The translations under genes were made by a program, and so were the position numbers. Shown here in pieces: positions 51,793 to 58,368 of a stretch of DNA of 64,000 nucleotides (the stretch's first letter is position 1; each line of letters starts with the position of its first letter). The DNA is taken from contig CAIRMR010000153.1 of assembly GCA_903879715.1 (NCBI GenBank), positions 3,026 through 67,025 of the forward strand. Reading direction: 5' to 3'. Below the pieces are notes generated by a model that saw only the letters and a list, made by a program, of their open reading frames with translations, was not told where the DNA came from and ran no database searches. Origin of the DNA: an uncultured Bacteroidales bacterium (lineage in GTDB: Bacteria; Bacteroidota; Bacteroidia; Bacteroidales; UBA4417).

Positions 51793-52230
51793 ATGGAAAC
51801 TACCATCAAAAATATTCTTTTGGTCGACGACAGCGCCAATGATGTGATCCTTATCAAATCCGCATTGAAGAATGCGCACTTTGGCAACGAAATTATTGTG
51901 GCTGAAGATGGAGAAGAAGCTATTGGTTTTTTATACAAACGGGGGAAATTCGCTGATTATTCAGGCGGAATGCCGGTTTTTATTCTACTGGATATTAAAT
52001 TACCTTTGATGAACGGCATCGAAGTATTGAAGGTAATTCGTTCCGATAAGGCATTTAAGCATATTCCCGTGATTATGCTTACTTCTTCACGCGACACTCT
52101 CGATCTGAAGGAGTGCTATGACAATGGGGCCAATTCGTTCGTAGTAAAACCGGTGAATATAAACGACTTTATGCTGGTAGTTAAAGAATTGGGGCAATAC
52201 TGGGTGGTAATAAATGAAATACCGTCATAA
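51793..52230 (+). CDS. Stand-alone receiver-domain response regulator (CheY/Rcp1-like, no output domain)
   Basis: 145 aa: ILLVDDSANDV, phospho-Asp context FILLDIKLPLMNG, TSS, and K in VVKPV. Confidence 0.9.
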   Translation: METTIKNILLVDDSANDVILIKSALKNAHFGNEIIVAEDGEEAIGFLYKRGKFADYSGGMPVFILLDIKLPLMNGIEVLKVIRSDKAFKHIPVIMLTSSRDTLDLKECYDNGANSFVVKPVNINDFMLVVKELGQYWVVINEIPS

Positions 52231-52247
52231 GAGGTGAAATGATTTAT

Positions 52248-52265
52248 CCCGACCTTCAGGTCGGG
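52248..52265 (+). promoter_or_regulatory. Intercistronic stem-loop between the receiver gene and the hybrid kinase gene
   Basis: cccgacc-ttca-ggtcggg is a 7-bp GC-rich stem with a tetraloop. Flanking tttat/ataaa extends it. There is no U-tract. Confidence 0.45.
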
Positions 52266-52285
52266 GAAATAAAACCCGATTACAA

Positions 52286-54268
52286 ATGGAAAGCATAATT
52301 CAGCTACTTCATCTCGAAGATAACCCTACAGACTCACTGTTGGTACAGTCGTTGCTGAAAAAGGCTAATGTCCGCTTCAACTATTTCTTTGCCGATAATG
52401 AAGAAGATTACCTTTTCATACTCAGAAACCATACAATCGATCTGATTTTATCCGATTACCACTTGCCTTCTTATTCAGGTGCCGAAGCGCTGTTGTTTGC
52501 AAGAAGAAATTATCCCAATATCCCGTTTGTGTTTTTAAGCGGAACGATGGGAGAGGATGCAGCCATTGAATCACTTTTAAACGGAGCTACTGATTATGTG
52601 CTCAAAAACAAAATGGAAAGGCTTATCCCGGCTGTTTATCGTGCTTACAAAGAAGCCCAGGAAACCAAAGCCCGGCAAAAAGCTGAAGATGAACTCCGGA
52701 AATTATCACGGGCTGTTGAGCAGAGCCCAAATTCGGTTGTGATCACCGATACGGAAGGCAGAATTGAATATGCAAATCCGGCAACACTTAAACTGACCGG
52801 TTATACCAGTGAAGAAGCAATGGGAAAAAATCCAAGGATATTTAGTACTCACGAAAAAACCAGGGAAGAATATGATTTTTTATGGGAAACTATCCAATCA
52901 GGAAAAGAATGGAAAGGGGAGTTTCACAATAAAAAGAAAGATGGGGAACTGTATTGGGAATCTGCTTCAATATCTCCTATTTTAAACGAAAATGGCGTTA
53001 TAACTCATTACCTTGCCATAAAGAAAGACATTACTGAAAGTAAACAGCTTACTACAGACCTTATCAATGCTAAAGAAAAGGCAGAAGAAAGCGATCGTTT
53101 AAAAACAGCTTTTCTTGCGAATATGAGTCATGAAATACGAACACCTATGAATGGTATCCTGGGTTTTGCCGCTCTTCTCAAAGAACCTGATCTGTCTGGT
53201 TCTCAGCAACAGGAATATATCAGGATTATAGAGAAAAGTGGTGCCCGTATGCTCAATATTATCAATGATATTATAAGTATTTCAAAATTAGAATCAGGTC
53301 AGACAAACCTTCTGTATTCCGAAATAAATGTAAATGAACTGGTTAAAGACTTGCATGATTTTTTTAGACCTGAGGCTCAGCAGAAAGGATTATATTTATA
53401 TCTTAAAAATTCATTGCCCGACAGTAAGGCAATAATCACGACAGATAAAGAAAAACTTACTGCTGTTTTAACCAACCTGATTAAAAACGCTGTTAAATTT
53501 ACTAAACAAGGCTCCATTACCATTGGTTATAAATTGAACCCATCCAAGCTATTGAATGAAGATGGAACGTTAGTTGAACCAGATGTACTAGAGTTTTTTG
53601 TAAAAGATACTGGTGTTGGCATTAGCCAGGAAAATAAGGGGATTGTTTTTGAGCGGTTCCGGCAAGGAAGTGAATCTCTGACCAGAAACTATGAAGGTGC
53701 TGGTTTGGGATTATCGATTTCGAAAGCATATGTGGAACTATTAGGGGGTAAAATCTGGTTTGAATCCAATCCTGAAGTTAACTCGGGAGAAAACGGGTCG
53801 GTTTTCTTTTTCTCGATTCCTTATTTACCTGTCCTGGAAAAACATGATACCATTACAAACACTAAACTTAACCTGAAAAGCATCGACATGATAAAACCTA
53901 TTAAAATTCTCATCAGTGAAGACGATGAAACATCGGATTTGCTGATTGCAATTATGTTACGAAAATTTAATACCGAAATCCTGCATGCGAAAACCGGAAT
54001 TGAAGTTTTAGGGATATTACAGGAAAACCCTGATATCGATATGATCCTTATGGATATTCAGATGCCTGAAATGAACGGATATGAAGCAACCAGGGAAATA
54101 CGAAAGTTTAATACGGATATAGTAATAGTTGCACAAACAGCTTACTCACTTTCAGGAGAACGCGAAAAGGCCATGGCTGCCGGATGCAACGATTATTTTG
54201 CTAAACCTATTGATCAGAATATGTTGAATGATGTTATCATGAAGTATTTTAATGAAAAAACTGTTTGA
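52286..54268 (+). CDS. Hybrid sensor kinase: REC - PAS - HisKA - HATPase - REC
   Basis: 660 aa: N-terminal receiver (LILSDYHLPSYSG), PAS (RAVEQSPNSVVITDTEGRIEYANPA...), H-box MSHEIRTPMNGI, HATPase (LIKNAVKFT, KDTGVGI, GAGLGLSI) and C-terminal receiver (ILMDIQMPEMNG). Confidence 0.9.
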   Translation: MESIIQLLHLEDNPTDSLLVQSLLKKANVRFNYFFADNEEDYLFILRNHTIDLILSDYHLPSYSGAEALLFARRNYPNIPFVFLSGTMGEDAAIESLLNGATDYVLKNKMERLIPAVYRAYKEAQETKARQKAEDELRKLSRAVEQSPNSVVITDTEGRIEYANPATLKLTGYTSEEAMGKNPRIFSTHEKTREEYDFLWETIQSGKEWKGEFHNKKKDGELYWESASISPILNENGVITHYLAIKKDITESKQLTTDLINAKEKAEESDRLKTAFLANMSHEIRTPMNGILGFAALLKEPDLSGSQQQEYIRIIEKSGARMLNIINDIISISKLESGQTNLLYSEINVNELVKDLHDFFRPEAQQKGLYLYLKNSLPDSKAIITTDKEKLTAVLTNLIKNAVKFTKQGSITIGYKLNPSKLLNEDGTLVEPDVLEFFVKDTGVGISQENKGIVFERFRQGSESLTRNYEGAGLGLSISKAYVELLGGKIWFESNPEVNSGENGSVFFFSIPYLPVLEKHDTITNTKLNLKSIDMIKPIKILISEDDETSDLLIAIMLRKFNTEILHAKTGIEVLGILQENPDIDMILMDIQMPEMNGYEATREIRKFNTDIVIVAQTAYSLSGEREKAMAAGCNDYFAKPIDQNMLNDVIMKYFNEKTV

Positions 54269-54515
54269 CTTTTGTTTGAGAATATGGATTGGCCTTTCCT
54301 TTGCCGATTAACTGATTCATGGTTTTTTATGATGTTCACTGGAAAAATCCCTTTCGGACATGGGTCAATTTAACAATACTGCTGATCGTAATGCTGCTCT
54401 GCTAATTAGAAATTGCGGGTCAGTCATAAAAGTTGGGGAAGAAGAAGGGTTTTTTGGAAAGGCCATAAGTTTTTTGAAACTTTCTAGTTTCGTTTTTTAA
54501 CGTTAGTGATGGATA

Positions 54516-54596
54516 ATAAAGCACCGTAGGTGCGAAATTATGGTAGAAAAAAGATCATCAATATATTAAAAGCCTCGTAGAGGCGGTATTATTGAT
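54516..54596. repeat. Left arm of an imperfect inverted repeat of about 80 bp flanking the RAYT pseudogene; holds two GTA-loop hairpins
   Basis: ataaag-gcaccGTAggtgc-gaaattatggtag...aa-gcctcGTAgaggc-ggtattatt. Its reverse-complement partner is at 54964-55049. Confidence 0.8.
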
Positions 54597-54953
54597 GAAA
54601 AAATTATTCATAAAATTCAAAAATATAGGCTGCGATCGTGAATATGAGAAACCTCTTTATTCTTCCTGCCATGAAAATTTGCCAACCATAAGTTTATTTT
54701 TATTAAACCATTTCGAAAAATCGGCCTTTACAATTCTTACAATGTCCGAAAGAGATTAAAAGGGACTCATTTCTAAAAACCTATGGACATGGTCTTTGTA
54801 CCCATTTACTGCCTGGGAAAATTGATTGGTATTGGTTAAAATTCATGAGATATATTTGAATAGCTCAGGACGCATTTTGGATGGCAATATATTTTCTCTT
54901 CCTTTAACTGCAAAAACAACGTGAGTGTTCAGGTGCGAGTAAATATTTGCCAT
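54558..54953 (-). pseudogene. RAYT / IS200-like Y1 (HUH) transposase pseudogene with three in-frame stop codons
   Basis: My minus-strand translation in ONE frame is MANIYSHLNTHVVFAVKGRENILPSKMRPELFKYIS*ILTNTNQFSQAVNGYKDHVHRFLEMSPF*SLSDIVRIVKADFSKWFNKNKLMVGKFSWQEE*RGFSYSRSQPIF... The stops are the complements of 54843-45 (TGA), 54756-58 (TAA) and 54657-59 (TAA). The HUH motif is HVH. The C-terminal Tyr/HH region is not recognisable. Confidence 0.75.
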
Positions 54954-54963
54954 AAGAATAGTG

Positions 54964-55049
54964 TATAATAATGTCGCCTCTACGAGGCTTAACCTTAATT
55001 TGTATTTTTTTGCTACCATACTTTCGTCTCTACGAGACTTTATACTCTC
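54964..55049. repeat. Right arm of the inverted repeat flanking the RAYT pseudogene
   Basis: aataatgtc-gcctcTACgaggc-tt...ctaccatactttc-gtctcTACgagac-tttat. A 16-nt core (cgcctctacgaggctt) is the exact complement of the left arm. Confidence 0.8.
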
Positions 55050-55545
55050 AGAATTAACATTTTTCGAAACCTACTCCTCAACTTTTGAAAGTGATCCGAA
55101 ATTGCTTTTCATAAAAACAGCAAAATTTGTTCTGTAATTCTCACAGTTGATACCATTTATTATTGCCTTCATTTTTTTTTATTGGCAAGATATTATTTTG
55201 ATGTGCTGGATTATAAAACCACTTGAAGTAAAATCTTTTTTTGATTTTTTGTTGCTTTTTGATCAAGCAAAAAGCAAAAGAAAAATAAATAATCAATTCG
55301 ATATTTCCAAAACAATCAAATTTGTTTATAATTCTTCATCAAAATTTGGTTCCAGCACATCAAAAATTTATGTAGCCTTTTTGTTGCACATATCAGACGC
55401 AAAAAGAATAAACATGTATATAGTTGAAATACAGTTGGATAATTGAATATTGCATACGAAGATTATAATTTTGTGTATCTTTGCGACTCTGCCAAGATTC
55501 AATTAATCTTTTACCTCCTTTCAGGATACAGACAACTTAATACTC

Positions 55546-57375
55546 ATGTTACTACGGAATATTTTCATATTTCTATTGTTCATGGTCTGCGTAAGCGGGG
55601 TTGCGTTAGCGCAGGAGAAACCTGACAGTACTGGTGTTACAGGAGTTTATAAACGAATTGAAGAATATTCGTCCAGGCGGAAATTTACCAGTATAATACA
55701 AAGCCTTTTATTACGACCGGTGATTACTTCAACGACTCCAACCCCTGAAATTTCAATCAATCCGGTTTCTGAAAATTATGCCTGTTATGAAGGTAAGATA
55801 ATCCGGAGTATTAATGTTACCACCCTTGATCCTTTTGGATTTCAGATTGCTGATACCACTGCCAGGCCAAGAAGTTACCTCGAAAATACCGGGAATTTGC
55901 TTCATGTAAAGACCCAGGATTATGTTATCCGGAACCGGATGTTAATTCAAAGGAATGATAGGTTTGATTCCTTATTGGTAAAGGAATCGGAACGTTTAAT
56001 CCGCAGCCAGAGTTATATTTACGATGTTGTTATTACAGCTGTCCCGACAGGCGAAAATTCTGATTCAGTTGATGTTTTTGTTCGCGCCAGCGATTTGTGG
56101 AGTATTGTCCCCGATGGCGCATTCTCAAATGAGGCTATTACATTAAAACTAACCGATAAAAACCTGGGTGGGTTGGGACATACATTTTCAGGTTCGTATA
56201 TGCAGAATTATATGAACGCCAACAATGCTTTTACAGGCTATTATTTTGTGCCAAATATCAGGAACTCATATATAAGCATGCGTTTAGCGTACTCCATTGA
56301 TGAGAATAAAAATTTCATTAAGGGGCTAAATTTCGAAAGATCATTTTTCTCTCCTGTTGCCCGGTGGGCTGGTGGTGTAGCCGTATCACAGCAAAAACTG
56401 ACCGGATGGATTTATAAAAATGACACAATACGCCTTAATCTACAGTCCAAAGCCAACATCCAGGATTATTGGGCTGCCGCGGCCTGGCAGGTTTTCAGAG
56501 GCGGGTCAGTCACCGACAGGTCTACAAAATTGATTTTATCCGGACGGATCTATACTGTCAGGTATCTCGAAAAACCCATTGAGCAACCTGACCTGATGGA
56601 TTATTATACCAGTGAACAGTTTTATTTGTCCGGGCTGGGGATTTCGAGCCGGAAATATGCAGAGCAAAGTTATATTTTTCGTTTCGGAACAACCGAAGAC
56701 GTGCCGATTGGAATCACTTACGGCGTTGTGGTCGGTTACCAGCTGAAAAACAGCGATCGCTGGTATTGGGGATTTAACCATTCGTGGGGTAATTTTTTCA
56801 AATTAGGTTACTTTGGAACTAATATTGAATACGGAACGTTTATAAACGCATCTTACAGGACCGAAGGCGTTTTAAAAGCCAGTATAAATTATTTTTCGGG
56901 CTTATTCTCTATCGGGAGCTGGAAATTCAGGCAGTTTGTAAAACCTGAATTTACACTCGGCTTAAGGCAGCCCTCATACGAAAGATTAACGCTTAACGAT
57001 GGGTATGGTCTTAACGGTTTTAACAGCGCTGTGCTTTCAGGTACCAGTCGTTTGCTTTTTGTAATTCAGACTCAATCCTATGCACCCTGGAATGTACTGG
57101 GTTTCAGGTTTGGGCCTTACCTTAATTTTTCGTTCGGTATGCTGGGCAATGGAACCTCCGGCTTCAGCCATAGCCGTATGTATCCTCAATTGGGAATGGG
57201 GGTTCTTATTCGTAATGATTACCTGGTTGTCAGCAATATTCAACTGTCTTTCGCTTTTTATCCTACCATTCCTGGCAAAGGGAATAATATTATCATAGCA
57301 AATCCTTTCCGAACTACCGATTTTGGATTCCCTGATTTTACTATCGGGAAACCCTCGGTAATTGAATATCGCTAA
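55546..57375 (+). CDS. Outer-membrane beta-barrel protein candidate (Omp85/BamA-superfamily-like; weak assignment)
   Basis: 609 aa with signal peptide ...GVALAQE. It has a POTRA-like N-terminal segment (GKIIRSINVTTLDPFG), and the C-terminal two thirds is rich in alternating aromatic/Gly beta-strand patterns. Confidence 0.5.
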   Translation: MLLRNIFIFLLFMVCVSGVALAQEKPDSTGVTGVYKRIEEYSSRRKFTSIIQSLLLRPVITSTTPTPEISINPVSENYACYEGKIIRSINVTTLDPFGFQIADTTARPRSYLENTGNLLHVKTQDYVIRNRMLIQRNDRFDSLLVKESERLIRSQSYIYDVVITAVPTGENSDSVDVFVRASDLWSIVPDGAFSNEAITLKLTDKNLGGLGHTFSGSYMQNYMNANNAFTGYYFVPNIRNSYISMRLAYSIDENKNFIKGLNFERSFFSPVARWAGGVAVSQQKLTGWIYKNDTIRLNLQSKANIQDYWAAAAWQVFRGGSVTDRSTKLILSGRIYTVRYLEKPIEQPDLMDYYTSEQFYLSGLGISSRKYAEQSYIFRFGTTEDVPIGITYGVVVGYQLKNSDRWYWGFNHSWGNFFKLGYFGTNIEYGTFINASYRTEGVLKASINYFSGLFSIGSWKFRQFVKPEFTLGLRQPSYERLTLNDGYGLNGFNSAVLSGTSRLLFVIQTQSYAPWNVLGFRFGPYLNFSFGMLGNGTSGFSHSRMYPQLGMGVLIRNDYLVVSNIQLSFAFYPTIPGKGNNIIIANPFRTTDFGFPDFTIGKPSVIEYR

Positions 57376-57384
57376 ACTTAGCTT

Positions 57385-58368
57385 ATGGGAGTTACTCGTG
57401 GTGAATTGCAAATTATTGTCATCATTCTCTTTTCTTTCAATAGTTTTCTCCCGCTCAAAGCGCAGACTGACTCTACTGCTCTGAATTTCCCGGATAATAC
57501 CCCGCTTCGAGCCATTTCAACCACTTATAAGACTGTGCATTATAAACCTCACTTCATTGCCGGTTTGCCTGGTAAAATAAAGGAAACTTCAGGTCTTTTG
57601 TTTTTTAATGGCCAGCTCTGGACACACAATGATAGCGGAAACCCACCGGAAATCTACCAGATTGACAGTGTAAACGGGAATATTCTGCGCACGGTCGTCA
57701 TCCGAAATTCAGTGAACAAGGATTGGGAAGGCATGGCACAGGACGATTCAAATATGTACATCGGGGATTTTGGGAATAATTCAGGCGACAGAAAAGACCT
57801 GAAAATTCTGAAGATAGCGAAATCGGATTTATACAACCCAGTGACAGACACTGTGGAAGCCGGTTATATTCATTTTTTTTATCCCGATCAGACTTTTTTC
57901 ACTCCGGCGTTTAACAATAACGATTTTGATTGTGAAGCTTTCTTCTTCTACAATGATTCGCTGCATCTTTTCAGCAAGGATTGGGCTGACTTACAGACGC
58001 GGCACTATGTAGTTCCGGCAGAACCTGGCTGGTACAAAGCAAGGTTCGTTGAACAATTTCAGGTTGACGGACTTATAACCGATGCCACTGTGAATCAGAA
58101 TGGGAACATTATACTATTGGGGTATAAAAACACATCAGGAAGATCTTATATTTGTTTTGCCTGGTTATTATCAGGGTATAACGGCTCAGAGTTTTTTAGC
58201 GGAAGCAAGCGGAGAATTGAATTGGGTTTAGCTTTACACCTGGGCCAGTCCGAAGGAATTGTATTGAAAAATGATAACACAGGGTGGATTTCATCCGAAA
58301 GCATTCAGTCGGGGTGGCTCAATGAGACTGCTAAGTTGTTCAGGTTTGATTTTGGAAAATATTATTAA
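57385..58368 (+). CDS. Secreted hypothetical protein (possible beta-propeller, SdiA-regulated/YjiK-like)
   Basis: 327 aa with a signal peptide. Contains ETSGLLFFNGQLWTHNDSGNPPEIYQID and ...EGMAQDDSNMYIGDFGNN. Only a 9-nt gap separates it from the upstream barrel gene. Confidence 0.55.
   Translation: MGVTRGELQIIVIILFSFNSFLPLKAQTDSTALNFPDNTPLRAISTTYKTVHYKPHFIAGLPGKIKETSGLLFFNGQLWTHNDSGNPPEIYQIDSVNGNILRTVVIRNSVNKDWEGMAQDDSNMYIGDFGNNSGDRKDLKILKIAKSDLYNPVTDTVEAGYIHFFYPDQTFFTPAFNNNDFDCEAFFFYNDSLHLFSKDWADLQTRHYVVPAEPGWYKARFVEQFQVDGLITDATVNQNGNIILLGYKNTSGRSYICFAWLLSGYNGSEFFSGSKRRIELGLALHLGQSEGIVLKNDNTGWISSESIQSGWLNETAKLFRFDFGKYY

What the first reader, a model, noticed from the sequence alone, without database searches (positions are those of the whole stretch)
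54516..55049. A decayed RAYT-like Y1 transposase with three in-frame nonsense codons, bracketed by inverted arrays of GTA-loop hairpins
- **Seen in sequence, gene:** on the minus strand a single reading frame spells a recognisable IS200/RAYT-type protein (MANIYSHLNTHVVFAVKGR..., HUH motif as DHVHRF, ...KFSWQEE.GFSYSRSQ). It is interrupted by TGA, TAA and TAA with no frameshift. The stops fall where family members, as I recall them, have Gly, Gln and Tyr.
- **Seen in sequence, flanks:** the gene lies between two arms of about 80 bp that are reverse complements of each other. Each arm has two 5-bp-stem hairpins with a GTA loop: gcacc-GTA-ggtgc versus gtctc-GTA-gagac, and an identical gcctc-GTA-gaggc pair. 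The first pair differs by compensatory changes that preserve pairing.
- **Established knowledge:** REP-associated tyrosine transposases are characteristically flanked by inverted REP hairpins, and a GTAG tetranucleotide is conserved in enterobacterial REPs. Every hairpin here contains GTAG.
- **Inference:** this is a dead or domesticated RAYT cassette. It sits directly after the ATPase-EBD-kinase locus and may mark a former insertion or rearrangement boundary.
Basis: partly seen in the sequence, partly recalled or inferred. Interest (0 to 1): 0.6.

Follow-up and report, generated by a model that had tools for sequence, protein, structure and literature searches.

The report
Dead transposase gene riding a MITE
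The broken IS200-like (Y1) transposase gene and its hairpins are real, but they are the dead cargo of a 681-bp miniature transposon that a different, ISL3-type transposase copied around. This is a neat but fairly ordinary piece of mobile-DNA natural history.

Summary
**Observation: confirmed.**
- The minus strand at 54953-54630 reads as an IS200-like Y1 (HUH) transposase. Pfam Y1_Tnp gives E=2e-15.
- It carries in-frame TGA, TAA and TAA. A ~112-bp deletion has also removed the catalytic-tyrosine motif.
- Two inverted ~80-bp arms flank it, each with two 5-bp-stem, GTA-loop hairpins.
- The hairpins belong to a genomic family. The module hairpin-N8-GGTAG occurs 18 times, against 0 in a control. 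An intact paralog (67% aa identity) carries the same arms.

**Interpretation: partly right.**
- The cassette did not decay in place and marks no rearrangement.
- It lies inside a 681-bp element (54417-55097). The element ends in ~23-bp terminal inverted repeats and is flanked by an 8-bp target duplication, GAAATTGC.
- The sister species (~90% nt identity in the flanking DNA) has the same site empty, with flanking gene order unchanged.
- That species holds at least 10 copies elsewhere. Every 5' end recovered (7 of 7, window copy included) pairs with a 3' end through an 8-bp duplication.
- All copies share stops 1 and 2 and the deletion, so the element spread after the gene died. Stop 3 is private to this window.
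- The same terminal repeats bound 1444-bp ISAon1-family (ISL3-type, DDE) insertion sequences, in a genus-mate and in metagenome contigs.
- No such transposase is present in this genome's assembly.

**Family placement.** The gene family is Y1 subclass 1.2, not a canonical RAYT.

The parts
54409..54416 (.). Left copy of the 8-bp target-site duplication GAAATTGC
   Evidence: Present twice in the window (also at 55098-55105) and once at the empty site in sister genome G008.
54417..55097 (-). 681-bp non-autonomous element (MITE / mobile insertion cassette) carrying the dead Y1 cassette
   Evidence: Absent at the orthologous site in G008. Found at 93-99% identity on 13 G008 fragments that give at least 10 distinct 3' ends. 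The limits of homology between copies coincide with these coordinates.
54417..54439 (+). Terminal inverted repeat at the gene's 3' side: GGGTCAGTCATAAAAGTTGGGGA
   Evidence: Inverted partner of 55097-55075. It shares GGGTCAGT with the right-end repeat of the ISAon1-type IS, GGGTCAGTTTCATTTTCTGGGGAGTAA.
54521..54546 (+). Outer hairpin module: GCACC-GTA-GGTGC, 8 nt, GGTAG
   Evidence: The same module architecture flanks the intact paralog.
54572..54584 (+). Inner hairpin GCCTC-GTA-GAGGC, without a GGTAG tail
   Evidence: It is identical to the hairpin of the 51-bp array beside the intact paralog.
54603..54626 (-). Out-of-frame remnant of the gene's last codons (TAT ATT TTT GAA TTT TAT GAA TAA = YIFEFYE*)
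   Evidence: DNA alignment with the intact paralog. A ~112-bp gap precedes it.
54630..54953 (-). Y1 (HUH) transposase pseudogene, first ~108 codons. Stops at 54845-54843 (TGA), 54758-54756 (TAA) and 54659-54657 (TAA, private to this copy)
54976..54988 (-). Inner hairpin GCCTC-GTA-GAGGC, read on the minus strand
55013..55038 (-). Outer hairpin module: GTCTC-GTA-GAGAC, 8 nt, GGTAG, read on the minus strand
55075..55097 (-). Terminal inverted repeat at the gene's 5' side: GGATCACTTTCAAAAGTTGAGGA
   Evidence: The G008 copies read GGATCACTTTCAAAAGTTGGGGAGTAGG. That matches 26 of 28 positions of the left end of a metagenomic ISAon1-family IS (L141).
55098..55105 (.). Right copy of the 8-bp target-site duplication GAAATTGC

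Best explanation
**What it is.** Window 54417-55097 is a 681-bp non-autonomous transposon. It can be called a MITE or, because it carries a passenger, a 'mobile insertion cassette'.

**Ends.** Its ends are the terminal inverted repeats of an ISAon1-family (ISL3-type, DDE) insertion sequence.

**Cargo.** The cargo is a REPtron-like cassette. It is an IS200-like Y1 (HUH) gene of subclass 1.2, set between inverted hairpin modules (5-bp stem, GTA loop, 8 nt, GGTAG).

**Order of events.**
1. The gene died first, through two nonsense codons and a ~112-bp deletion that removed the catalytic tyrosine motif.
2. The whole unit was then copied by the DDE transposase supplied in trans. Each insertion made an 8-bp staggered cut, which shows as a duplication.
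3. One copy landed between the hybrid kinase gene and the outer-membrane-protein gene in this lineage, duplicating GAAATTGC.
4. That copy later acquired a third nonsense codon and a G-to-A change in one terminal repeat.

**Shown here.**
- The element's limits, its terminal repeats and its 8-bp duplications.
- The empty site in the sister species.
- Multiple copies that share the gene's lesions.
- Autonomous IS copies with the same ends.

**Inferred.**
- That the ISAon1-type enzyme did the moving.
- That the element is now immobile in this genome, because no such transposase is in the assembly.
- How the Y1 cassette came to lie between the two IS ends.
For: **1. Empty site.**
- G008 is colinear with window 52000-54432 and 55378-57998 at 90-91% nt identity.
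- It reads ...TTAGAAATTGC|TTTTCAT..., with one GAAATTGC where the window has two copies flanking 681 bp.

**2. Copies.**
- A 681-bp DNA query finds one copy in the own genome and 13 fragments at 93-99% identity in G008. No other of the 41 genomes searched has a match above 78% identity.
- Most G008 fragments stop at contig ends, as expected for a repeat in a k141 assembly.

**3. Target duplications.**
- All 7 recovered 5' ends pair with a 3' end through the adjacent 8-mer.
- Five pairs are perfect: GCAATTTC (the window copy, read on the gene strand, = GAAATTGC on the + strand), TTAATAAA, AACATATA, ATTTAAAG and AGAATATG. Two differ at one position.

**4. Shared lesions.**
- TGA (codon 37), TAA (codon 66) and the 3' deletion are in every copy.
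- Codon 99 is TAT in the G008 copies and TAA only in the window.

**5. Autonomous partner.** The same terminal repeat begins 1444-bp elements.
- These lie on metagenome contigs L141, L144, L154 and L163, and in genus-mate G009:C29 (L164).
- They encode two ORFs. The second scores DDE_Tnp_ISL3 at 174 bits and NCBIfam ISAon1_downstr at 444 bits (cut-off 250).
- L163 is flanked by ACTTAAAG on both sides.

**6. Other elements with the same ends.**
- Sizes of 55, ~220, 330, 533 and 728 bp were found.
- The 330-bp one is a gene-less version of this same hairpin cassette (L127).
- The 728-bp one carries an intact Y1 gene and the duplication GATAAATC (L092).

**7. Cargo homology.** The cassette is 80% identical, outer hairpin to outer hairpin, to the intact paralog's cassette on C65.
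Against: - No ISAon1-family transposase was found in the own genome or in G008. Both are short-read MAGs in which multi-copy IS are often lost, so absence is weak evidence. The enzyme is therefore assigned by matching ends and duplication length only.
- Three of the four metagenomic IS copies inspected lack a clean 8-bp duplication.
- The element's 3' repeat (GGGTCAGTCATAAAAGTTGGGGA) differs at 5 of 23 positions from the 5' one.
- Y1 cassettes of two different subfamilies sit between these IS ends within one genus. Plain passenger capture does not explain this.
- Precise excision in G008, rather than insertion here, cannot be strictly excluded.
Confidence: 0.85

Rival explanations
1. The cassette is moved by the intact Y1 paralog acting on the shared hairpins. 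That would make it a REPIN/PATE-like non-autonomous partner of an IS200-like or RAYT-like enzyme, moving through single-stranded DNA intermediates.
For: - The intact paralog at C65:514-972 and its 95%-identical ortholog in G008 carry the same hairpin types, GCCTC-GTA-GAGGC and GTGCC-GTA-GGCAC.
- Hairpin stems vary by compensatory changes across 12 related loci, so the hairpins are under structural selection.
- The only protein-coding gene seen between these terminal repeats in the genus, other than in the IS itself, is a Y1 gene (L092).
Against: - The repeated unit extends 104 bp and 59 bp beyond the outer hairpins, and ends exactly at the terminal inverted repeats in all copies.
- Insertions make 8-bp duplications at varied AT-rich sites, with no conserved target tetranucleotide. 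Known Y1 HUH transposases make no duplication and insert next to a fixed short motif (established knowledge of IS608/ISDra2).
- The same ends bound elements that have neither hairpins nor a Y1 gene, and they bound a DDE-encoding IS.
Confidence: 0.06
2. One reading: a resident REPtron that decayed where it sits, marking an old insertion or rearrangement boundary next to the kinase locus.
For: - The gene is dead and hairpin-flanked.
- More distant genus members do not have the kinase gene upstream of the outer-membrane-protein gene.
Against: - Gene order across the site is identical in the closest species, where the site is empty.
- The same dead cassette, with the same two stops and the same deletion, lies at 10 or more other sites in that species.
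Confidence: 0.03
3. The element is ancestral at this site and was precisely excised in the sister species. The element would be the same, but the history reversed.
For: The 8-bp repeat could also support deletion by microhomology.
Against: - The window copy differs from the G008 consensus at only 7 of 458 shared columns, and sits within the G008 copies' own diversity (94.5-96.1% against 93.2-96.9%).
- The orthologous flanks differ by ~10%. An orthologous, ancestral copy should be at least as diverged as the flanks.
Confidence: 0.05

Closest known systems
MITEs and mobile insertion cassettes (e.g. MIC231 of Bacillus cereus, moved in trans by the IS231A transposase; cited from my own knowledge, not checked here)
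   Same: - IS-type terminal inverted repeats and a fixed-length target duplication.
- No transposase of its own, small size, multiple copies.
- A non-transposition passenger between the ends.
   Different: - The passenger is itself a (dead) transposase gene of an unrelated mechanistic class (Y1 HUH), complete with its own hairpin ends.
- The parent IS is ISAon1/ISL3-type, not IS231/IS4.
ISL3 family / ISAon1-family insertion sequences (NCBIfam NF049917, NF033550; Pfam PF01610)
   Same: - Terminal repeats matching at 26 of 28 positions (G008 copies against L141).
- An 8-bp duplication, as in L163 (ACTTAAAG).
   Different: - The window element is 681 bp rather than 1444 bp and encodes no DDE protein.
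- Both of its ends resemble the IS left end in the AAAAGTTGGGGA core.
REPtrons: RAYT genes flanked by inverted REPs (PMC3733652; E. coli TnpA-REP)
   Same: - A single Y1 gene between inverted short hairpins.
- A conserved GTAG-containing motif.
- Hairpin arrays, and orphan copies elsewhere in the genome.
   Different: - The protein family is Y1 subclass 1.2 (Y---Q--HH), and scores below the RAYT model cut-off.
- GTAG lies in the loop/stem junction and again 8 nt 3' of the hairpin, not at the 5' foot.
- The REP population is small (tens of copies) and mostly clustered.
- This particular copy is dead and is carried by another transposon.
TIRtrons / TIRYT: Y1 genes flanked by long terminal inverted repeats (PMC3733652; PMC6006769)
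   Same: - A Y1 gene between terminal inverted repeats that belong to a repeated family.
- The repeat contains GGGGAGTA, which matches 6 of the 8 positions of GGGGWSAS.
   Different: - Here the repeats belong to a DDE IS found with its own transposase.
- TIRYT proteins are mostly subclass 2.1 with HTH domains.
- A search of PMC3733652 for 'target site' and 'duplication' found neither term.
Y1 subclass 1.2 (PMC6006769)
   Same: - DH[IV]H, WQ and Y---Q--HH motifs in the intact paralogs.
- About 150 aa, from Bacteroidetes.
   Different: - That paper describes the subclass as generally lacking terminal secondary structures.
- Here 12 of 30 related loci, including the closest relatives, carry inverted GT(N)A-loop hairpins, often in arrays.

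Membership tests
IS200/IS605-type Y1 (HUH) transposase (Pfam PF01797) | Profile score above the curated cut-off | tested here: met
   57.2 bits against a cut-off of 23, with stops masked.
IS200/IS605-type Y1 (HUH) transposase (Pfam PF01797) | HUH motif | tested here: met
   The translation reads KDHVHRF.
IS200/IS605-type Y1 (HUH) transposase (Pfam PF01797) | Catalytic tyrosine helix present in an intact reading frame | tested here: not met
   - The profile match stops at position 100 of 121.
- A ~112-bp deletion removes the segment VIKYIIKQEQHH of the paralog.
- There are three in-frame stops.
- In the paralog this Tyr aligns with the KYIESQ segment of ISDra2 TnpA, PDB 2xm3.
RAYT / TnpA-REP (NCBIfam NF047646 REP_Tyr_transpos) | Equivalog model score at or above 80 bits | tested here: not met
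   Intact paralogs score 20.8 and 31.6 bits. They pass transpos_IS200 instead, at 65 and 71 bits against a cut-off of 55. The pseudogene hits only transpos_IS200, at 48 bits.
RAYT / TnpA-REP (REPtron architecture) | Gene flanked by inverted REP hairpins | tested here: met
RAYT / TnpA-REP (REPtron architecture) | A dispersed genomic REP/REPIN population cognate to the gene | tested here: inconclusive
   The genome has 18 hairpin-N8-GGTAG modules against 0 in the control. Most lie in arrays beside Y1 genes, plus an orphan array on C5 and scattered GTCCC-type copies.
Y1 subclass 1.2 (PMC6006769) | DH[IV]H, WQ and Y---Q--HH signatures | tested here: met
   - Paralogs have DHVH/DHIH, SWQEG, and YIIKQEQHH or YIINQTNHH.
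- The pseudogene keeps DHVH and SWQEE. The third motif is deleted.
MITE / mobile insertion cassette of an ISL3 (ISAon1)-type IS | Terminal inverted repeats matching those of an autonomous IS | tested here: met
   GGATCACTTTCAAAAGTTGGGGAGTA begins the element and also the 1444-bp IS copies L141, L154, L163 and L164, which encode an ISAon1/ISL3 DDE protein.
MITE / mobile insertion cassette of an ISL3 (ISAon1)-type IS | Target-site duplication of fixed length, equal to that of the parent IS | tested here: met
   8 bp in 7 of 7 paired ends. 8 bp (ACTTAAAG) around IS copy L163 and 8 bp (GATAAATC) around L092.
MITE / mobile insertion cassette of an ISL3 (ISAon1)-type IS | Occupied and empty orthologous sites | tested here: met
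MITE / mobile insertion cassette of an ISL3 (ISAon1)-type IS | Multiple copies and no transposase of its own | tested here: met
   At least 10 copies in G008 and 1 here. The only ORF-like content is the dead Y1 gene.
MITE / mobile insertion cassette of an ISL3 (ISAon1)-type IS | Mobilisation in trans by the IS transposase | not testable with these tools
   Needs a transposition assay. No such transposase is in the own genome or in the G008 assembly.
REPIN (inverted REP doublet moved as a unit by a RAYT) | The repeated unit begins and ends at the REPs | tested here: not met
   The unit ends at IS-type repeats, 59-104 bp outside the outer hairpins.

The most novel reading that the evidence does not exclude
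Y1 (subclass 1.2) hairpin cassettes and ISAon1-type IS ends may be associated non-randomly.

**What was seen.**
- In one genus, two different Y1 subfamilies sit between these ends. One is intact, with an 8-bp duplication (L092). One is dead and amplified (this element).
- A gene-less derivative also exists (L127).

**What it might mean.**
- The single-strand-specific Y1 cassettes may preferentially home into the hairpin-forming DNA of MITEs.
- Or an otherwise immobile, 'domesticated' Y1 gene may use DDE-driven cassettes as its vehicle for spread within and between genomes.

**Possible sign of transfer.** The window copy is nearer to the sister species' copies than the orthologous flanks are to each other.

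**A bolder version.** The Y1 enzyme itself may act on the terminal repeats. The 8-bp duplications and the DDE-encoding IS make this unlikely.
Probability: 0.15. Interest if true: 0.6.

Novelty: new variant of a known kind. Interest (0 to 1): 0.4.

Why it matters
- It shows one transposon family hitch-hiking on another. A Y1/REP-type cassette, normally single-copy and regarded as immobile, was amplified to at least 10 copies after its own enzyme was destroyed.
- It is a caution for annotation. Multi-copy 'IS200-like pseudogenes' need not reflect Y1 activity.
- It is also a caution for REP/RAYT surveys. Hairpin copy number can be inflated by an unrelated DDE system.
- As a by-product, the Bacteroidetes Y1 subclass 1.2 was described as lacking flanking structures (PMC6006769). 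In this genus it is regularly flanked by inverted arrays of short GT(N)A-loop hairpins, with a conserved GGTAG 8 nt downstream.
- That gives a concrete substrate to test for this uncharacterised enzyme subclass.
- For the host locus the element is a simple intergenic insertion. It lies 149 bp after the hybrid-kinase stop codon and 449 bp before the outer-membrane-protein start codon.

Tried and rejected
- **IS6 family as parent.** The terminal repeat resembles GGTTCTGTTGCAAAGTT of IS257 (from my own memory), and IS6 also makes 8-bp duplications. PF13610 found nothing in six genomes, so I rejected it.
- **Autonomous partner in the own genome.** Only four solo or short terminal-repeat matches turned up (C147, C186, C185, C182), with no transposase nearby.
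- **ORFs next to the repeats in 9 relatives' loci and 6 named MAG contigs.** None held a transposase. The metagenome scan then found the IS.
- **Global MAFFT alignment of the window against the empty site.** It was misleading. Local alignments resolved the junctions.
- **My first element coordinates.** 54427-55104 was 10 bp off on the left. I corrected it to 54417-55097.
- **A regex for hairpin plus tail.** It missed the main family because of greedy loop matching. I redid it. The 4-nt-loop class is still under-counted there.
- **Earlier scan notes near this place.** They concern the neighbouring kinase locus and did not bear on this element.
- **Literature.** Nothing on 'ISAon1' is in the library. 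TIRYT appears only in the two papers cited.
Full report
**1.

On the minus strand, one frame from the ATG at 54953-54951 reads MANIYSHLNTHVVFAVKGRENILPSKMRPELFKYIS*ILTNTNQFSQAVNGYKDHVHRFLEMSPF*SLSDIVRIVKADFSKWFNKNKLMVGKFSWQEE*RGFSYSRSQ.
- The stops are TGA at 54845-54843, TAA at 54758-54756 and TAA at 54659-54657.
- With stops masked, the translation scores 57.2 bits on Pfam Y1_Tnp (E=2.3e-15, cut-off 23). The match covers only profile positions 3-100 of 121.
- It scores 48 bits on NCBIfam transpos_IS200.

The two flanking arms are inverted repeats.
- 54516-54555 pairs with 55004-55043 at 78% complementarity.
- 54570-54593 pairs with 54967-54990 at 92%.
- Each arm holds two 5-bp-stem, GTA-loop hairpins.
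- The hairpins appear in the predicted single-strand DNA folds.

**2. The hairpins and the gene have a family in this genome**

The window is contig C153:3026-67025 of a 6.07-Mb, 40% GC, 223-contig assembly. Relatives found by name are Bacteroidales/Lentimicrobiaceae metagenome-assembled genomes.

The genome has eight intact Y1_Tnp ORFs.
- The closest is C65:514-972 (153 aa). It is 67% identical to the pseudogene over 107 residues.
- At the positions of the three stops it has Gly, Lys and Tyr. Another paralog has Gln at the second position.
- Its DNA is 80% identical to the window cassette from outer hairpin to outer hairpin.
- That alignment shows a ~112-bp deletion in the window copy. The deletion removes the segment ...VIKYIIKQEQHH... 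and leaves the last codons (YIFEFYE*) out of frame.
- The lost tyrosine aligns with the KYIESQ segment near the C-terminus of ISDra2 TnpA, PDB 2xm3. From my own knowledge, that segment holds the catalytic tyrosine.

The intact paralog has the same architecture as the window cassette.
- Upstream there are at least nine tandem 51-bp units of GCCTC-GTA-GAGGC-GGCATTAT-GGTAG, running off the contig start.
- Next to the gene is a proximal hairpin without the GGTAG tail.
- Downstream are an inverted GCCTC hairpin and an inverted GTGCC hairpin with the tail.

Genome-wide counts exceed chance.
- GCCTCGTAGAGGC occurs 15 times and GTCCCGTAGGGAC 10 times.
- GC-rich GTA-loop hairpins followed by GGTAG exactly 8 nt downstream number 18, against 0 in the reversed-genome control.

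Across 30 related Y1 loci in relatives, 12 (including the closest relatives) have upstream and downstream hairpins in inverted orientation.
- Stems vary by compensatory changes: GCCTC, GTCTC, GCACC, GTGCC, GCGCC, GCCCC, GTCCC, GTTCC, TGCCC and others.
- The C-GT(N)A-G core stays constant.

**3. What family the gene belongs to**

- The intact paralogs pass NCBIfam transpos_IS200 (65 and 71 bits, cut-off 55).
- They are far below the REP-associated tyrosine transposase model (21 and 32 bits, cut-off 80).
- Their DH[IV]H, WQ and Y---Q--HH motifs are those of Y1 subclass 1.2 in PMC6006769. That subclass is Bacteroidetes/Cyanobacteria-restricted and low in copy number. [quoted passage not shown]

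The gene therefore works like a REPtron in its architecture. It is not a member of the RAYT family by sequence model.

**4. The cassette is cargo of a larger mobile element**

The closest species in the collection is G008 (JAURYB01). Its outer-membrane-protein ortholog is 95% identical at protein level, and the flanking DNA is 90-91% identical.
- G008 is colinear with the window on both sides but lacks the cassette.
- Local alignment shows ...ATTAGAAATTGC|TTTTCAT... in G008.
- The window has GAAATTGC (54409-54416), then 681 bp, then GAAATTGC (55098-55105), then TTTTCAT.
- The 681 bp begin and end with inverted repeats: GGGTCAGTCATAAAAGTTGGGGA at 54417-54439, and GGATCACTTTCAAAAGTTGAGGA at 55097-55075 on the minus strand.

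G008 carries the same 681-bp unit at 93-99% identity on 13 fragments.
- Most are cut by contig ends.
- No other of the 41 genomes searched has a match above 78% identity.
- Homology between copies stops exactly at the terminal repeats.
- There are ten distinct 3' ends.
- All seven 5' ends recovered (six from G008 plus the window's) pair with a 3' end through the adjacent 8-mer. Five pairs are perfect: GCAATTTC (the window copy, read on the gene strand), TTAATAAA, AACATATA, ATTTAAAG and AGAATATG. Two differ by one mismatch.
- The pairing also shows that the apparently complete copy on G008 C109 is an assembly join of two copies.

**5. The element spread after the gene died**

- Every copy has the TGA at codon 37, the TAA at codon 66 and the ~112-bp deletion.
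- Codon 99 is TAT in the G008 copies and TAA only in the window.
- The first two stops are therefore not sequencing errors.
- Over 458 shared columns, the window copy is 94.5-96.1% identical to G008 copies. The G008 copies are 93.2-96.9% identical to each other.
- The window copy has only 7 private differences from the G008 consensus.
- The orthologous flanks differ by about 10%.

I infer that the insertion here postdates the split of the two species. This implies a shared or exchanged source copy. That step is inference, not shown.

**6. Which enzyme moves it**

Known Y1 HUH transposases make no target duplication and insert next to a fixed short motif (established knowledge for IS608/ISDra2). 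The fixed 8-bp duplications at varied AT-rich sites point instead to a DDE enzyme.

The terminal repeat occurs in 8 of the 41 related genomes searched, all of them in the window's own genus (8 of 25). It bounds a range of small elements:
- 55 bp (L099) and ~220 bp (L123);
- 533 bp (L086);
- a 330-bp gene-less version of this very hairpin cassette (L127);
- a 728-bp element with an intact Y1 gene of another subfamily and the duplication GATAAATC (L092).

An IS6 parent was tested and rejected.

A metagenome scan with the repeat found 1444-bp elements on L141, L144, L154 and L163.
- They begin GG(A/G)TCAC(A/T)TT(C/T)AAAAGTTGGGGAGTAA.
- They end ...TTACTCCCCAGAAAATGAA(A/C)(G/T)TGA(T/C)CC.
- They encode two ORFs in different frames.
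- The second ORF scores 174 bits on DDE_Tnp_ISL3 and 444 bits on NCBIfam ISAon1_downstr (cut-off 250).
- L163 is flanked by ACTTAAAG on both sides.

A genus-mate, G009:C29, holds such an IS with these ends and one TGA inside the ORF.

No ISAon1-family transposase is detectable in the own genome or in G008.
- Both are short-read MAGs, where multi-copy IS are commonly lost.
- The assignment of the enzyme therefore rests on matching ends (26 of 28 positions) and on equal duplication length.

**7. Mechanism proposed**

An ISAon1/ISL3-type transposase, supplied in trans, binds the two terminal repeats. It inserts the unit with an 8-bp staggered cut. The Y1 gene and its hairpins are passive cargo.
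- Shown: the anatomy, the duplications, the empty site, the copies with shared lesions, and autonomous IS copies with the same ends.
- Inferred: trans-mobilisation by that enzyme, present immobility in this genome, and how the cassette came to lie between the IS ends.

The recurrence of Y1 cassettes of two subfamilies between these ends is not explained by plain passenger capture. It is the basis of the 'novel case'.

**8. Comparison with what is known**

The element meets every tested criterion of a MITE or mobile insertion cassette of an ISL3-type IS. It resembles a REPtron in its cargo and a TIRtron (PMC3733652) in outline. It fails the RAYT model test and the REPIN boundary test.

I rate it a new variant of a known kind: a DDE-driven cassette whose passenger is a dead HUH transposase unit. 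It comes with a side observation on subclass 1.2 hairpin arrays. Interest is moderate.

**9. Consequence for the locus**

There is no rearrangement. The element is a simple intergenic insertion. It starts 149 bp after the hybrid-kinase stop codon (which ends at 54268) and ends 449 bp before the start of the 609-aa outer-membrane-protein gene (55546).

A second small insertion follows at 55185-55377. It is also absent from G008.

Noticed in passing
window 55185-55377 (plus imperfect 9-bp direct repeats TTTTTATTG at 55176-55184 and TTTTTGTTG at 55378-55386): A second MITE-like insertion, also absent from the sister genome.
- It has terminal inverted repeats around TTTTGATGTGCTGGA and an internal palindrome TTGCTTTTTGATCAAGCAAAAAGCAA.
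- 137 bp of it are 96% identical to own-genome C31:5769-5905.
- Short end matches occur on C5, C107 and C209.
   Followed up: partly
G000:C65:1-464 and G000:C5:71567-71710: Tandem arrays of a 51-bp unit carrying GCCTC-GTA-GAGGC-N8-GGTAG.
- At least 9 units lie upstream of the intact Y1 gene and run off the contig start.
- An orphan array of 3 and a fraction units lies downstream of an unrelated gene on C5.
   Followed up: partly
L092:2089-2816 (G014:C16:52588-53315): A 728-bp element with the same ISAon1-type terminal repeats and an 8-bp duplication GATAAATC. It encloses an intact 187-aa Y1 ORF of a different subfamily, with its own GTCCC-GTTA-GGGAC hairpins. By eye this ORF closely resembles own-genome C8:28842-29330 (identity not computed).
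   Followed up: partly
L127:240-568 (G014:C46): A ~330-bp version of the window's cassette with the gene deleted. The order is terminal repeat, GTCTC and GCCTC hairpins, remnant of the gene's last codons, inverted hairpins, terminal repeat. It is 80-83% identical to the window arms.
   Followed up: partly
G000:C202:3150-3650: A complex array without any Y1 gene. GTCCC-GTA/GTTA-GGGAC hairpins in both orientations surround three ~100-bp repeats that contain degenerate hairpin variants.
   Followed up: no
G000:C147:13685, C186:41447, C185:61701, C182:330: Solo or short ISAon1-type terminal repeats (GGATCACTTTCAAAAGTTGGGGAGTAA plus 20-40 bp of shared sequence). No partner repeat or transposase lies within 3.5 kb.
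   Followed up: partly
G000:C40:1-2389 (minus strand): A 796-aa open frame that runs off the contig.
- It holds an N6-adenine-methylase-like motif (DPACGSGAFL).
- Near its C-terminal end it has a weak Y1_Tnp match (E=1.9e-5).
- It ends in HNSDGK repeats.
   Followed up: no
G000:C16:84233, C17:44587, C64:32670, C131:4692: A ~40-nt sequence, GGAACATGGGATTGTCCGTAGGACATTAATATTCATTGTA, recurs on four contigs. It contains a CGTAG hairpin. It is probably part of another repeated element and was not examined.
   Followed up: no
L163, L141, L144, L154 (metagenome contigs) and L164:363-1806 (G009:C29): The ISAon1-type IS has its two ORFs in different reading frames, overlapping near ...GGATACGCGACCCGATACCATG... 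This is consistent with a two-protein or frameshift-fused transposase. The G009 copy has an internal TGA.
   Followed up: no
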